From NCBI RefSeq assembly GCF_009914755.1, contig NC_060938.1: a stretch of DNA of 64,000 bases. One strand, given 5' to 3'. Of this stretch, positions 37,466-63,192 are shown in pieces. Position numbers and translations under genes: made by a program. The DNA is from the human T2T-CHM13v2.0 reference genome, Homo sapiens. Every line of letters begins with the position of its first letter. Position 1 is the first letter of the stretch. Below the pieces are notes generated by a model, which was given only the letters and a program-made list of their open reading frames with translations, was not told the DNA's origin and made no database searches.

Positions 37466-39573
<2,108 letters not shown>

Positions 39574-46249: not shown

Positions 46250-46600
<351 letters not shown>

Positions 46601-46963
46601 TGAGTACAATGTTGAATAGAAGTGGTGAGGCCGGGCGCAGTGGCTCACACCTGCAATCCCAGCACTTTGGGAGGCCGAGTCAGGCAGATCACCTGAGGCC
46701 AGGAGTTCTAGACCAGCCTGGCCAACGTGGTGAAACCCCATCTCTACTAAAAATACAAAATTATCCAGGTGTGGTAGCTCATGACTGTAATCCCAGCTAT
46801 TCAGGTGGCTGAGGCATGAGAATCGCTTAAACCCAGGAGGTGGAGGTTGCAGTGAGTCGAGATCGCGCCACTGCACTCTAGCCTGGGTGATAGAGCGAGA
46901 ATCTGTCTCAAAAAAAAAAAAAAGTGGTGAGAGTACGTATCCTTGTCTTTTTCCCAGTCTTAG

Positions 46964-47224
<261 letters not shown>

Positions 47225-49173
47225 TGATCCACCTGCCTCAGCCTCCCAAAGTGCTGGGATTACAGGTGTGAGCCACTGCACCTGGCCTTTCATGATTAAA
47301 TTTGATGTTAGCTGTAGTTTTTTCATAGATGCCCTTTATCAGATGAAGGAATTTACCTTCTCTTCCTAGTATGTTGAGAATTTTTATTATGAATGGGTAT
47401 TGGATCTTGTCAAACACCTTCGTGTGTCTGTTGAGATGATCTTGTTTTTGTACTGTATGCTACTAATTTTACTGCTAGTAGTTGGTTTTTGGATGTAAAA
47501 CCAACTTTGTGTTTCTAGGGTAAATCCCATTTGGTCAGGGTGTATAGTCCTATTTATGTGGTGCTAGACTTGGTTTTGTCATAATTTGTTAAGAATTTTT
47601 ACAGCTGGCTGGATGTGGTGGCTCATGCCTGTAATCTCAGCACTTTGGGAGGCCAAGGCAGGAGGATTGCTTGGGCCTAGGAGTTCTGGACCAGCCTGGG
47701 CAGCATAGGGAGACCTGTCCTCTACAAAAAATAATAAATCAGTAAGAGAGAGGGAGGGAGGGAAGGAAGGAAGGATGAGAGGAAGGGAGAGATAGAGAAG
47801 GAGGGCGGGAGAGTGGAAAGGAAGGAGGAAAAGGAGTCTGGATGTTCATGAGCGATATTGGTCTGTAATGTTTTCTTGTGATATCTTTAGCTTTTCTATG
47901 AGGGTAATTATACTGGCCTCCCTGGTTCAAGTGATTCTCATGCCACAGTTTCTTGAGCAGCTGGCACTACAGGCGTCCACCACCAATGTCTTGTTAATGT
48001 TTGCATATTTTTTAGTAGAGATGGGGTTTTGCCTTGTTAGGCTGGTCTTGAACTCTTGGCCTCCAGTGATTCACTTGCCTTGGCTTCCCAAAGTACTGGG
48101 ATTATAGGTACGAGCCACCGTGCCTGGCCTGGTTGTTATTTTTGGAGCTTCTCATGCTGTATTTATGCTTTTGACATGACCCATTTGTCTTGTTATAGCC
48201 TCTCTGCTTTCTAACACAACAACAGTTCCCAGGCTTACCTTGGACTTGGAATCAGCTATTCCTCCATGGAGTCCTGGTTCCTTATAGTTGGAACCACAGT
48301 CTGGGTGCCATGTGCCCGTTGCTGTTAGGTTGTCATCGTTGGCAGGGCGCAGTGGTTTATGCCTGTAATCTTGGCACTTTGGGAGGCTGAGGCGAGCAGA
48401 TCACTTTAGCCCACGAGTTCGAGACTAGCCTGGGCAACACAGTGAAGCCCCGTTTCTACAAAAAAAAAAAAATACAAAAATTAGCTGGGTGTGGTGGCAT
48501 ACACCTGTAATCCCAGCTACTTGAAAGGCTGAGGCATGAGGATCTCTCGAACCCAGGAGGTGGAGGCTGCAGTGAGCCGAGATGCACCACTGCACTCCAG
48601 CCTGGGAAACAGAGCGAGACTGCGTCTCAAAAAAATAAATAAATAAAAAGGTTGTTACTGTTTCTAGAACTTTTCGGTGGAAAGAACTAAAGACATATTT
48701 TTGAAAAGAAAATAATTGGTTCATGTTGATAATTCCAATTTAAATTTTCACATTAAACAATTTTCAGGGGATTTTTTTGTACTTTATTTTTTTCTTACAT
48801 CGAAAATCTTGGTTCATAACATTAATACAATATTGTTTCAAAATGATAATACCAATATTATCAATTTGTCTACAGAATGAAGTTTAAGACTTTTGGAGCT
48901 GTGGTTCTTAGAATAATACTATGTTTAAATACCCTTTAAATCATTGTTTTAATATATCACCAGCTTGATATGTAGATTTGCTTCAGTTTCTTTTTCAAAA
49001 AGCCTTGATTATAGGTGTGTCTCTTTACCATGTTCCCTCCCTCCTTCTCTTATAGGTATAAACACTTTTTATTTCCTATTTGGTTTACTTTTCCAGTGGT
49101 TCTTTTTGCATATACAAGCAAATGCAGGTTATTTAAGTTGAGATATAGTTCACATACCATAAGATTCATCTCA

Positions 49174-53406: not shown

Positions 53407-53715
53407 TAATTCTTATTCCTTCGCCATATCTTTCCTTAATTATTCCAAATATTCCTTTCTAAAGATCCACCTATCCTGTTTCATATGCTAATTCTTCAGA
53501 CGCTGAACACAAGCAAGGATCATTATCTTCTAAGGCTTACTCTTTCCCTTCTAGGTTTATTCTTGTTTCTCGAAAGTAGGTGAAATAGGGGGTGGCATCC
53601 CATCTATAGGTTAACTTCTAGTAATGAAAGAGAAGGCCAGCTTCTGTTGAAAGAAAATGAGGACCAGGCACAGCCTTGATTGCTGTATGTCTCTCACAAC
53701 CTATTCTCTGTGCAG

Positions 53716-53856
53716 CTGAGCCACTAATGGGCAGTAGTTTGCTTGAAGAGGCTTCAGTACCCAGTAAAAACCTGGTGTCTATGAATTCCCAGCCCAGCCT
53801 TGGTGGAGAGTCCTTGAACCTACCAAATACCAATTCTATCCTGGGAGTTGATGATG
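53716..53856 (+). CDS. ZNF410: ZNF410 exon 10, AEPLMGSSLL...ILGVDD
   Basis: gtgcag|CT acceptor, ATG|gtaaga donor; 141 nt, phase 1-1. Confidence 0.95.
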
Positions 53857-54241
53857 GTAAGACTTCCAACTCTCCTTTATTTGGGAAAAATGGGCTGCAA
53901 CTAGGGGCTAAGGAATGGGGTGTCTCCACAATGTATGTTTAAATCTCATTTCTTATGAGTAGCTGTGGTATGAGTAGCATTTGTGTTCTTATTCTCTGGG
54001 GTGGATTAGTCAATCTGTTTAAAAAAAAATTTTTTTTCATTGAAGATAATATAATAAAAGAATAAAAAGAAAAAATTCTTAAGAAAAAATTATTCCTAAT
54101 CCTAGCATCCTAGCCCAACTATTTCTATCTTTCCTATTGCAGTTATGGAAGAACTTAACTTTTAGAACATTTAAACAGAACATAACCAGGTTTTACAGAG
54201 GAGATATAAAGCAATTTCTCCATACCTTCAAAAGCCATATC

Positions 54242-54386
54242 TTCTGGAGAAAAGAAAGGGCTCTCTAGGAAACACTTGCTCCTCTCTGGTATAGAAATTT
54301 CACCCAAGTTACACAGGCCAGGCCCTCTTCTCTGAAAAACTTAACAGGTGAGGTCAGCATGCATTTATTCAGTGCCTACTGTGTGC
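54242..54386 (+). repeat. Left arm of 145-bp inverted repeat flanking ZNF410 exon 11
   Basis: 137/145 identical to the reverse complement of 55477-55621, no gaps. Confidence 0.95.
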
Positions 54387-55044
54387 CTGGCACCATGGGA
54401 AAGACAAAAGTAGAAGATAGGGACCTTAAAATCCAGTTGAGAAGTGAAAGCTTACATATATATGGGAAAGAACATTGAGTACATAAAAGATAGTATATAA
54501 GCCAACATTAAATTATATGGTACAGCATAAAATAGTTGTATAATCTAGAAAACCCCTAGAAGAAACTTCTAGTTTTTTGAGGGCTAAGTGGTATATCCAT
54601 AAACTATTTCCAGAAGATTTTCATGGTGATCCCACTGATGAACATTTAGTAACTGTGAGACCCTATGTTTTTGTTACTCATATCATATTCAGTTAGTAAG
54701 TGCTATTAGTATCATTGGCGACTGCTTTTAAGGGTGGCTTTGGTTCCCTTACCTGCTTGCCTAAGACTTTTGCCTGTTTCATACATAGTTTTAATTCAGT
54801 TAAAAGTGCTAACACCATATTATTCTAAATCCTGTATTAAGATTTCTTGCCTTTCTATTCTCTTTTTATATTACTTTCCAAATTCACTGATAATGCTTAT
54901 CAGACAGGATTAACTTGGAAGAAATAGAGGAATGTGGGAAATAGAGGAATAGAGTTTTAGAGTTGTTAATGAGAGGCTTAATGATCCAGATAGGTGTATC
55001 TCTGGATTCACTTTTCATTGAAACATTTTTCTGTTGCTTCACAG

Positions 55045-55172
55045 AGGTGCTTGCTGAAGGATCCCCACGTTCCCTGTCTTCAGTGCCTGATGTGACACAT
55101 CACCTGGTGACCATGCAGTCAGGGAGGCAATCATATGAAGTTTCTGTCTTAACTGCAGTAAATCCACAAGAG
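55045..55172 (+). CDS. ZNF410: ZNF410 exon 11, EVLAEGSPRS...AVNPQE
   Basis: cacag|AG acceptor, GAG|gtaaag donor; 128 nt, phase 1-0. Confidence 0.95.
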
Positions 55173-55476
55173 GTAAAGTGGTCTCTTGCCCTTTGTTTCT
55201 GTGACAATTCATGTGGGGAATGATTGAGAATTTAGAGGACCTGAAAAAGTCTCCAGTTTCCATTTCCTGGAAACTTTGGCACGAATATTTTCCTTTAAAT
55301 TAAGCATGAGTTCAGCTTGAAAGGAGCCTGAGGGTTAGGGTCTTAATGAATTGGAGATTGGTCTGTCACAGCTGGGACTCCCGGCTTTAAAGTTCTTTTA
55401 TATACATTCCTTGTTGATGTCTGTTCCCACTATTCTCTGCCACACTATAACATGATACAGCTTTTATTTTATAAAA

Positions 55477-55621
55477 GCACACAGCAGGCACTGAATAAAT
55501 GCATGTTGACCTCACCTGTTAAGTTATTCAGAGAAGAGGGCCTGGCCTGTGTAAATTGGGTGAAATTTCTGTACCAGACAGGAGCAAGTATTTCCTAGAG
55601 ATCCCTTTCTTTTCTCCAGAA
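55477..55621 (-). repeat. Right arm of 145-bp inverted repeat flanking ZNF410 exon 11
   Basis: Reverse complement of 54242-54386 with 8 mismatches. Confidence 0.95.
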
Positions 55622-55788
55622 ATAACATCCTGGAAAAAGTCCCTCAGCAAAAAAGGTAGTAACAAAATCATTAAACATAATTATTGTTCATTCTGCTATG
55701 GTCATATGTCTGGGAGATACCAGGCTTAACCAAATGGGCATATACAGATTTGTTCACTTGCTTGCTAAGTGAGAACCATTACCTAAAT

Positions 55789-56072
55789 CAATGGTCTCCA
55801 GCCTTTTTGGCACCAGGGACCGGTTTCGTTTCACCTCAGGTCATCAGGCATTAGATTCTGATAAGGAGTGCGCAACCTAGATCCCTCAAATACACAGTTC
55901 ACAATAGGGTTTGCGCTCCTATGAGAATCTGTTGCTGCTGCTGATCTGACAGGAGAGGTGGAGCTCAGGTGGTAATGCTTGCTCACCTGCTGCTCACCTC
56001 CTGCTGTGTGGCCTGGTTCCTAACAGGGCACGGACCAGTGCTGGTCCATGGCCTGGGGGTTGGTGACTTCTG
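55789..56072. mobile_element. MER1B (hAT-Charlie)
   Basis: cctttttggcaccagggaccggtttc...catcaggcattagattc...gcaacctagatccctc...gggggttggtgacttctg; TSD-like acctaaat/atctaaac. Confidence 0.8.
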
Positions 56073-56123
56073 ATCTAAACAAAAAGGGTTTGAGGTTGAG
56101 CTAAAGCACTTTCAACTCTGTAG

Positions 56124-62551
<6,428 letters not shown>

Positions 62552-63153
62552 TCATTTTGTTTTTATATTAAAATGGAAGCCAATTTCATTATTTCAAAAC
62601 TCCTTTGAATAGAGCCTTGTGTATAGAGTAGAATGTTAGTGGTAGTTGCCATTATGCAGGAGTCCCTTAGGCTTATCATTCTTTTAAGCCCAAGGAACCC
62701 CTAGATCTTTTATGAGTGGGTTTCAGCTCTCATATAGTACTTATAAAGGAACAGCTCCTCTTCCTATTTCCTTCTCCTACTTGAGCCTTCAGCCTATCCT
62801 TTGGCTGACACGTATAAGATTTTGGTTCCACCATTTCTGTTTTCCCTGTAAGTTAGAGATTCCTCTGTCACTGACTGATGAGTAGGTAACTACACAAACA
62901 ATAGTTTGGCTTATAGACTCAGAATATTTGATTGCCAGAGTTAAAATGCCAGCCTTATGACATGGCTAAAGTGCTGTCCCAAGGCCACAGTGACATCTAT
63001 CAGTCCGTGCATGTGTTTGCTTTGGAAGTAGATAGCCTTCATTCACCCCTGTAGTGCATTCTCCATCCTCCACTCTTAATACTTTTTACTATGAATTATT
63101 TTTTCTATAATTCAACTGTAACCTATTCTAGATTTGCTTTCAATCTTTTACAG

Positions 63154-63192
63154 TTACTAAACCAAGGAGATTTAACTGAAAGACGGACATGA
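63154..63192 (+). CDS. ZNF410: ZNF410 last coding exon (exon 12), LLNQGDLTERRT*
   Basis: ttacag|TTA acceptor; TGA at 63190-63192; completes the 478-aa ORF. Confidence 0.95.
   Translation, partial: LLNQGDLTERRT

What the first reader, a model, noticed from the sequence alone, without database searches (positions are those of the whole stretch)
54242..55621. Non-Alu 145-bp inverted repeat brackets ZNF410 exon 11: candidate RNA-structure splicing switch
Seen: 54242-54386 and the reverse complement of 55477-55621 match at 137/145 with no gaps. As RNA, two of the eight differences are G-U wobbles and two are A-C mismatches. The 1090-nt loop holds exactly one exon (55045-55172, 128 nt, not divisible by 3), 658 nt from the left arm and 304 nt from the right. 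The arms look mostly unique; only the inner ~25 nt resembles an L2 end, which continues beyond the left arm only, so this looks like a local inverted duplication. An 8-bp hairpin (gcttttat-ttt-ataaaagc, 55460-55478) sits at the right arm's inner breakpoint. Computed by hand: skipping exon 11 gives ...GVDD-VTKPRRFN* (stop 63177-63179, in the last exon, so it should escape NMD), a 431-aa protein with all five fingers but without the normal C-terminal 55 aa. Known: intronic complementary regions promote skipping or back-splicing of enclosed exons, and long duplexes with A-C mismatches are ADAR substrates. Inference: a dsRNA switch, possibly editing-sensitive, sets the ratio of ZNF410 C-terminal isoforms and so CHD4/fetal-globin output. 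I am not aware of a description of this element.
Basis: partly seen in the sequence, partly recalled or inferred. Interest (0 to 1): 0.85.

Follow-up and report, generated by a model that had tools for sequence, protein, structure and literature searches.

The report
Unique inverted duplication around ZNF410 exon 11
A 145-base piece of a ZNF410 intron was copied backwards into the next intron, so the RNA can fold a long double-stranded stem around one coding exon, but nothing yet shows that this changes how the gene is spliced.

Summary
54242-54386 and the reverse complement of 55477-55621 match at 137 of 145 without gaps, 1090 nt apart, and enclose only ZNF410 exon 11 (55045-55172). The arm is not a high-copy repeat: its unique 120 nt occur only twice in T2T-CHM13, and neither arm is masked. 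An old dispersed repeat runs across the left arm's inner end but stops at the right arm's end, so the left arm is the parent and the right arm a local inverted copy. Divergence of 5.5% suggests a primate-age event. The predicted RNA duplex is very stable (about -258 kcal/mol) and dominates the fold of the 1.46-kb region.

The functional reading is untested. All 6 RefSeq ZNF410 transcripts keep exon 11, and my paper searches found nothing on a ZNF410 circRNA, exon 11 skipping or editing. My best reading is a lineage-specific, probably near-neutral intronic dsRNA that is a likely ADAR substrate and at most a minor promoter of back-splicing or skipping. It is a new member of a known kind, the intronic reverse-complementary match. 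Reads, editing tables and other primate genomes, which would decide the question, were not available here.

The parts
54242..54386 (+). Left arm: the parent copy of the duplicated segment, in ZNF410 intron 10. It consists of about 120 nt of unique sequence plus the last ~25 nt of an old dispersed repeat.
   Evidence: 137/145 match to the right arm; unique part has only 2 genome copies; repeat continues past 54386 here only.
55477..55621 (-). Right arm: the inverted copy, in ZNF410 intron 11, 304 nt after exon 11. There is no target-site duplication, no A-tail and no upstream-exon sequence next to it.
55045..55172 (+). ZNF410 exon 11 (128 nt, coding), the only exon in the 1090-nt loop. It is present in 6 of 6 RefSeq ZNF410 transcripts.
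54362..54404 (.). Fragment of an old dispersed repeat that spans the left arm's inner breakpoint. The family name, MIR/L2 3' end type, is from recall and from no call.
   Evidence: chr10 match to 54362-54404; alignment; 231 matches against 0 in the control.
55460..55478 (.). Perfect 8-bp AT-rich palindrome with a 3-nt loop, straddling the copy's inner breakpoint. Its last 2 nt are the first 2 nt of the arm.
   Evidence: (-5.6 kcal/mol as DNA, 0 of 200 shuffles as good), (about 3% chance for any of the 4 breakpoints).
54075..54386 (-). Terminal exon of the predicted antisense non-coding transcript XR_008488826.1 (filed under FAM161B). Its 3' splice acceptor boundary coincides exactly with the left arm's inner end.
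   Evidence: exon table; canonical GT..AG junction.
63154..63179 (+). Start of the last ZNF410 exon, read in the shifted frame after exon 11 skipping. The stop is at 63177-63179.
54345..54353 (+). 5' splice-site-like motif inside the left arm. It would be buried in the duplex. Its mirror copy lies on the minus strand in the right arm, near 55517.

Best explanation
A lineage-specific local inverted duplication. 145 bp of ZNF410 intron 10 (left arm, the parent) was copied in reverse orientation into intron 11 (right arm, the copy), at a small AT-rich palindrome. The likely route is a DNA-level template switch or templated break repair. As a result the ZNF410 pre-mRNA, and also the antisense read-through RNA, can fold a 145-bp, 94-96% paired duplex that loops out exon 11. 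I think the element is neutral or nearly so. Its main molecular consequence would be a long intronic dsRNA, a probable substrate for ADAR editing and dsRNA helicases. Its effect on mRNA would be at most a low level of exon 11 back-splicing and/or skipping, not a regulated isoform switch. Shown: the repeat, its uniqueness, the parent/copy polarity, the predicted stability and the coding consequence of skipping. Inferred: the mechanism of origin, the age, editing, and the size of any splicing effect.
For: The repeat and its sharp ends are shown. There are only two genome copies of the unique part, and neither arm is masked. Polarity comes from the dispersed repeat that crosses the left breakpoint only. 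At the one difference inside that repeat (54378) the left arm agrees with the chr10 copy. There are no retrocopy or transposon hallmarks: no 5-mer or longer is shared within 25 nt either side of the right arm, there is no A-tail, and the upstream sequence is unlike the upstream antisense exon. The duplex energy is -257.8 kcal/mol for the + strand RNA and -261.2 for the minus strand RNA. The stem is present in both the MFE and the centroid of the 1461-nt fold. Divergence is 8/145, or 0.057 after Jukes-Cantor correction. 6 of 6 RefSeq transcripts keep exon 11. Transitions give 2 G-U and 2 A-C, with no excess of pairing-preserving changes. [quoted passage not shown]
Against: I saw no RNA data of any kind, so 'minor effect' rests only on RefSeq's transcript list and on silent literature searches. 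A skipped isoform that escapes NMD could exist in other annotations or in particular tissues. The duplex is far stronger and closer to the exon than typical Alu pairs, which argues for a real effect. The exact coincidence of the parent breakpoint with an antisense splice acceptor is not explained by a plain DNA-level accident. With only 8 differences, the test for pairing selection has almost no power.
Confidence: 0.6

Rival explanations
1. The duplex is a regulated, editing-sensitive switch that sets the ratio of full-length ZNF410 to a 431-aa C-terminally altered ZNF410, and through it CHD4 and fetal-globin output.
For: The duplex is very stable and brackets exactly one frame-shifting exon. 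The skipped product keeps all five fingers and has its stop in the last exon. Two A-C mismatches are present; a preference of ADAR for A opposite C is recalled knowledge. The finger domain alone acts as a dominant negative, so activation needs regions outside the fingers (bioRxiv 10.1101/2020.08.31.274324, passages).
Against: 0 of 6 RefSeq transcripts skip exon 11. No paper was found on such an isoform, a circRNA or editing. The C-terminal region has no assigned function and does not affect DNA binding in vitro (PMC9976917). The element looks young, whereas ZNF410 and its control of CHD4 are described as conserved across vertebrates (PMC9976917), so the axis works without it. The exon 12 acceptor is 7.5 kb beyond the right arm, so looping barely brings the skipping splice sites together (inference).
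Confidence: 0.07
2. A constitutive, unregulated reverse-complementary match that drives appreciable back-splicing of exon 11 (a 128-nt circle), with or without coupled skipping, and has no adaptive role.
For: The geometry favours it: the arms bring the exon 11 donor (304 nt away) and acceptor (658 nt away) together. It is the only listed inverted pair with an arm in intron 10, so nothing competes for the left arm (25 longest of 168 pairs shown). Such matches are sufficient for both outcomes in vivo in C. elegans (PMC8330042, abstract).
Against: 128 nt is short for a single-exon circle (recalled: single-exon circles tend to come from long exons). No ZNF410 circRNA paper was found. Intron 10 may be removed before the duplex matters (inference).
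Confidence: 0.2
3. The copy matters for the antisense strand. In the FAM161B read-through RNA the right arm pairs with the first 145 nt of the terminal exon 54075-54386, with the 3' splice site at the very foot of the stem. This controls use of that exon or yields a hairpin RNA.
For: The parent breakpoint coincides exactly with the acceptor boundary at 54386, and the junction is canonical. The minus-strand duplex is as stable as the plus-strand one (-261.2 kcal/mol).
Against: The transcript is a computational model (Gnomon). I saw no canonical AATAAA near its 3' end by eye. Rfam finds no known RNA family in the arms. The coincidence is post hoc, and a 2-nt microhomology would shift it.
Confidence: 0.05
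4. Both arms are independent insertions of an interspersed repeat, or they are the terminal inverted repeats of a DNA transposon.
For: The inner ~25 nt belong to a dispersed repeat family.
Against: The other 120 nt have no further genome copy. The arms are not masked. No target-site duplication flanks the unit. The interior holds a coding exon of a gene described as conserved across vertebrates. The repeat fragment is cut at the copy's edge.
Confidence: 0.02

Closest known systems
Intronic reverse-complementary matches (RCMs, or intronic complementary sequences) flanking circularised or skipped exons
   Same: The arms are inverted complementary sequences in the two introns flanking one exon. 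They are predicted to pair across it. This is the arrangement shown to promote both back-splicing and skipping (PMC8330042, abstract).
   Different: No back-splice or skipping product was seen here. The arms come from a unique local duplication rather than from repeats. They pair much better (94%) than the Alu-sized pairs nearby (87% or less). The enclosed exon is only 128 nt.
Inverted-repeat Alu pairs (IRAlus) in introns and 3' UTRs: dsRNA, ADAR editing, circRNA biogenesis
   Same: A long intramolecular dsRNA in a pre-mRNA, with the same expected interactors (ADAR, dsRNA helicases; recalled).
   Different: The arms are not Alu. They are unmasked, have only two genome copies, and show no 7SL-like Rfam match, whereas a true Alu at 56343-56490 does.
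Long-range RNA structures that loop out alternative exons (for example the FGFR2 IAS2/ISAR and ATE1 type; examples recalled, not read here)
   Same: Base-pairing between the flanking introns is proposed to change the choice of exon.
   Different: Those structures are short, conserved and supported by compensatory mutations. This one is long and apparently young, and it has no co-variation evidence.
Templated insertions and local inverted duplications from replication template switching or break repair (FoSTeS/MMBIR-type events; recalled)
   Same: A short nearby segment copied in inverted orientation, with sharp breakpoints, no target-site duplication, possible 2-nt microhomologies, and a small palindrome at the insertion site.
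   Different: The pre-insertion allele was not seen, so the junction microhomologies cannot be verified. One breakpoint coincides with a splice acceptor, which such models do not predict.

Membership tests
Intronic reverse-complementary match (RCM) flanking an exon | Complementary sequences in inverted orientation, one in each intron flanking the exon | tested here: met
   The arms lie in intron 10 (53857-55044) and intron 11 (55173-63153) of NM_021188.3, matching at 137/145.
Intronic reverse-complementary match (RCM) flanking an exon | Pairing across the exon is predicted to win over alternative pairings | tested here: met
   The stem is present in the MFE and the centroid of the 1461-nt fold. 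Duplex energy is -257.8 kcal/mol. No other pair among the 25 longest of 168 has an arm in intron 10.
Intronic reverse-complementary match (RCM) flanking an exon | An observed back-splice or exon-skipping product of the enclosed exon | not testable with these tools
As an indirect check, 0 of 6 RefSeq transcripts skip the exon, and no paper was found.
Intronic reverse-complementary match (RCM) flanking an exon | The product depends on the arms (deletion and compensatory mutation) | not testable with these tools
   This is a bench experiment.
Inverted-repeat Alu pair | Both arms are Alu elements (7SL-derived, high copy) | tested here: not met
   The unique 120 nt have 2 genome copies only. The arms are not masked. 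The Rfam SRP-like match lies at 56343-56490 only, not in the arms.
DNA transposon or MITE with terminal inverted repeats | Target-site duplication flanking the unit, and multiple genomic copies | tested here: not met
   The best shared word within 25 nt of the unit's ends is a 5-mer, not adjacent to either end. No further copies exist. The interior holds a coding exon.
Processed retrocopy of the antisense transcript | Upstream exon sequence joined at the exon boundary, an A-tail and a target-site duplication | tested here: not met
   The 40 nt upstream of the right arm are unlike the 3' end of the upstream XR exon. No shared word of 5 nt or more flanks the right arm. No A-run follows it.
Local inverted duplication or templated insertion | A parent and a copy nearby, with the copy truncating a feature that continues in the parent | tested here: met
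   The dispersed repeat spans 54386|54387 in the parent. In the copy the alignment ends at 55477.
ADAR-edited dsRNA region | A long, nearly perfect intramolecular duplex in a transcribed region | tested here: met
   139 of 145 positions pair when G-U is counted. The longest helix is 40 bp, and all interruptions are single mismatches.
ADAR-edited dsRNA region | Observed A-to-I (A-to-G) changes in RNA | not testable with these tools
   No reads or editing tables are available. The search for ZNF410 with RNA editing and ADAR gave 1 irrelevant review.
Known structured RNA gene (miRNA, snoRNA or other) in the arms | A match to an Rfam family | tested here: not met
   Of 4 matches at E<=1 in 53600-56600, none lies in an arm. 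Three lie in the Alu at 56343-56492, and one weak match (E 0.32) lies at 55420-55475.

The most novel reading that the evidence does not exclude
A primate-specific duplication that is not derived from a transposon created a 145-bp dsRNA clamp. The clamp loops out ZNF410 exon 11 and, depending on ADAR or helicase activity, diverts a meaningful share of transcripts to a 128-nt circle and/or an NMD-immune 431-aa isoform lacking the C-terminal region. This would add a lineage-specific tuning layer to the ZNF410-CHD4-fetal-globin axis. A bolder variant: the copy was templated by the antisense spliced RNA, which would explain why its edge sits exactly on a splice acceptor.
Probability: 0.06. Interest if true: 0.7.

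Novelty: new member of a known kind. Interest (0 to 1): 0.33.

Why it matters
ZNF410 is described as a transcription factor with a single responsive target gene, CHD4, which is required for fetal-globin silencing. Any cis element that changes the amount or form of ZNF410 is therefore of some therapeutic interest. The element is also a clean natural test case. It is a long, unique, near-perfect intronic duplex around a single short exon, with no Alu partner competing for its upstream arm among the listed pairs. That would make effects on back-splicing, skipping and editing easy to attribute to it. If public RNA-seq shows neither the junctions nor editing, it is simply one more neutral structural accident.

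Tried and rejected
Transposon or independent-repeat origin is rejected.

Retrocopy of the antisense spliced RNA was considered because the parent breakpoint equals the XR_008488826.1 acceptor. I found no upstream-exon sequence, A-tail or target-site duplication, so I keep it only as an unexplained coincidence.

Known RNA families: none lies in the arms.

Selection for pairing: 2 G-U against 2 A-C among 4 transitions, 4 transversions, and none of the differences at a CpG. This gives no signal, but there are only 8 differences.

Baseline rarity: I wanted about 1.6 Mb around the window and obtained only 20 stretches of 10 kb. In 264,000 bases (169,370 unmasked) there were 7 unmasked inverted pairs of 40 nt or more. 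This pair was the only one of 100 nt or more at 90% or better; the next was 119 nt at 82%. The sample is too small for a genome-wide rate. Two short pairs from that scan (38974-39016 and 47236-47278 among them) turned out to be Alu edges that escaped the 100-base mask list.

Literature. Nine searches were run.
- The two TCGA stomach-cancer papers list only an alternate-acceptor event for ZNF410 (passages).
- The SF3B1/SUGP1 paper mentions ZNF410 only as primers for an RT-PCR assay.
- PMC13104972 and PMC10503144 hold nothing on ZNF410 splicing.
- The papers listed were judged from titles and abstract starts only.
- The journal versions of the two 2021 ZNF410 papers were not held. I read passages of one preprint instead.
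- Supplements are closed. Figure S1 of PMC9976917, which lists the ZNF410 isoforms, was not seen and might include an isoform lacking exon 11.

Protein-database check for the skipped isoform: not done. The isoform is a joined sequence that may not be typed, and single exons are too short for the length window of the search for homologous proteins.

Cross-species presence of the right arm: no tool here holds other primate or mammalian genomes.

Full report
**Observation**

The inverted repeat is real and exactly as described. The repeat finder lists arms 54242-54386 and 55477-55621: 145 nt, 94% complementary, 1090 nt apart. A base-by-base check gives 8 mismatches and no gaps, and the similarity ends abruptly at all four ends.

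Counting G-U, 139 of 145 positions pair, in helices of 19, 11, 10, 23, 28, 40 and 8 bp separated by single mismatches.

The loop contains one exon, 55045-55172 (128 nt), which is exon 11 of 12 in the select transcript NM_021188.3. Joining exon 10 to exon 12 yields a 431-aa product. It has a short novel tail and a stop at 63177-63179 in the last exon, and it loses the normal last 55 residues. By the usual last-exon rule (established knowledge) such an mRNA should escape nonsense-mediated decay. The 8-bp palindrome at 55460-55478 is also there.

**What it is**

The arm is not a member of a repeat family.
- A search of the whole T2T-CHM13 assembly with 54200-54440 found the locus itself, the other arm, and one 43-nt match on chr10 covering 54362-54404 (3 matches at E<=10).
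- The unique 120 nt (54242-54361) found only the two arms (2 matches).
- No masked repeat of 100 bases or more lies between 53346 and 55867.

The 43-nt portion belongs to an old dispersed family. A 24-nt stretch spanning the left arm's inner end has 231 genome matches at 3 or fewer mismatches, against 0 for the reversed control. I recall this sequence as the shared 3' end of MIR and L2 elements; no call named it.

The polarity follows from that repeat. The chr10 copy aligns straight through the left arm's boundary (54362-54404). In the right arm the alignment stops exactly at 55477. So the left arm is the parent, and the right arm is a copy that took only the terminal ~25 nt of the repeat. At the single difference inside that portion (54378), the left arm agrees with the chr10 copy.

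The unit is not a transposon, and the copy is not a retrocopy.
- No shared word of 5 nt or more lies within 25 nt on either side of the right arm.
- Only a non-adjacent 5-mer is shared around the whole unit.
- No A-run follows the copy.
- The interior holds a coding exon of a gene described as conserved across vertebrates (PMC9976917).

**Age (inference)**

8/145 is 5.5% raw divergence, or 0.057 after Jukes-Cantor correction, with a binomial interval of 2.4-10.6%. At 1e-9 substitutions per site per year (a recalled rate) this gives about 29 million years, with an interval of 12-57. Slower or faster recalled rates give 57 or 13 million years. I therefore expect a primate-specific element. I could not check this, because no other primate genome is reachable here.

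**Breakpoints**

Two coincidences remain unexplained.

First, the parent's inner end, 54386, is to the base the first base of the minus-strand terminal exon 54075-54386. That exon belongs to the predicted non-coding transcript XR_008488826.1, whose junction 64032-to-54386 is a canonical GT..AG. The right arm therefore reads, on the + strand, as the first 145 nt of that exon. But the sequence upstream of the right arm is unlike the upstream exon. By my own rough arithmetic, two parent breakpoints over a 1188-nt intron make an exact hit a 0.2-0.8% event, and this estimate is post hoc.

Second, the copy's inner end lies inside the AT-rich palindrome. That palindrome folds at -5.6 kcal/mol as DNA, and 0 of 200 shuffles fold as well. 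Such palindromes cover 0.81% of the window (25 places), giving about 3% for any of the four breakpoints. The last two bases of the palindrome are also the first two of the arm. This is compatible with a 2-nt microhomology in a template-switch event, and it would move the true parent breakpoint by 2 nt.

**Expected behaviour**

The two arms alone pair at -257.8 kcal/mol as + strand RNA and -261.2 kcal/mol as minus-strand RNA. In a fold of 54200-55660 the full stem appears in both the MFE (-549.3 kcal/mol) and the centroid.

Within 41000-64000 the pair is the best-matched of the 25 longest listed of 168 inverted pairs: 94%, against 87% or less for the Alu-sized pairs. It is also the only listed pair with an arm in intron 10, so nothing obvious competes for the left arm.

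Reverse-complementary matches in flanking introns are known to promote both back-splicing and skipping of the enclosed exon (PMC8330042, abstract; PMC5042038, passages). The geometry here brings the donor and acceptor of exon 11 together (304 and 658 nt from the arms). The exon 12 acceptor, however, is 7.5 kb past the right arm. I therefore infer that back-splicing is favoured more than skipping. The exon is short for a circle (recalled).

Intron 10 can be spliced as soon as exon 11 is defined, and that would pre-empt skipping (inference).

**Evidence against a switch**

- All 6 RefSeq ZNF410 transcripts (5 NM and 1 NR) contain 55045-55172. The annotated variation lies elsewhere: skipping of exon 10, exon 4 or a 51-nt exon, and two extra exons in intron 11.
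- Searches found 0 papers for circZNF410 spellings and 0 for ZNF410 with 'inverted repeat'.
- 5 papers mention ZNF410 with circRNA; I opened one and found it irrelevant.
- 6 papers hold ZNF410 with 'exon skipping', of which 4 were listed; the two I opened were irrelevant.
- 16 papers hold ZNF410 with 'alternative splicing' and 'exon'. The two stomach-cancer papers among them report only an alternate-acceptor event.
- 1 irrelevant review came up for ZNF410 with editing. 7 papers hold ZNF410 with dsRNA, none relevant by title.
- The C-terminal region (367-478) is of unknown function. It does not change DNA affinity in vitro, and it has only a low-confidence predicted fold at 438-478 (PMC9976917, passages).
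- The finger domain alone is a dominant negative, so activation needs something outside the fingers. Whether that is the C-terminus is not known (preprint 10.1101/2020.08.31.274324, passages).
- The substitution pattern gives no sign of selection for pairing, but it has little power.

**Verdict**

This is a genuine, previously undescribed (within my searches) local inverted duplication of unique sequence. It should make a long intronic dsRNA around ZNF410 exon 11. It belongs to a known kind, the intronic reverse-complementary match, and is unusual mainly in being non-repeat-derived, short-range and nearly perfect.

The origin and structure are well supported. The proposed isoform switch is unsupported so far, but it is cheap to test with public reads. 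In the small baseline I could assemble, it was the only unmasked inverted pair of 100 nt or more at 90% or better (264 kb, of which 169 kb unmasked).

Noticed in passing
window 54075-54386 (- strand), boundary at 54386: The terminal exon of the predicted antisense ncRNA XR_008488826.1 (FAM161B) starts exactly at the left arm's inner end, so the right arm reads as the first 145 nt of that exon in sense. The junction is a canonical GT..AG. No retrocopy hallmarks are present.
   Followed up: partly
window 56352-56469 and 58757-58878: The two extra ZNF410 exons of NM_001242924.2 and NM_001242928.2 lie inside Alu-sized masked repeats (56310-56633 and 58727-59035). The first overlaps a minus-strand 7SL/SRP-like Rfam match at 56343-56490, so it looks like exonisation of an antisense Alu.
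   Followed up: partly
window 54345-54353 (+) and near 55517 (-): A strong 5' splice-site-like motif sits inside the left arm on the ZNF410 strand. Its mirror copy sits on the antisense strand in the right arm. Both would be buried in the duplex.
   Followed up: no
window 46281-46576 and 46628-46923: A tight Alu-sized inverted pair: 296-nt arms, 84% complementary, only 51 nt apart, in the long ZNF410 intron between exons 41079 and 52630. It is another strong candidate for intronic dsRNA.
   Followed up: no
window 53716-53856: RefSeq NM_001242926.2 skips exon 10 (141 nt, in frame), the exon just upstream of the left arm. By contrast no RefSeq model skips exon 11.
   Followed up: no
window 55250-55273 and 55613-55636: A 24-nt direct repeat at 71% identity, one copy in the loop and one overlapping the outer end of the right arm. 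It is probably chance.
   Followed up: no
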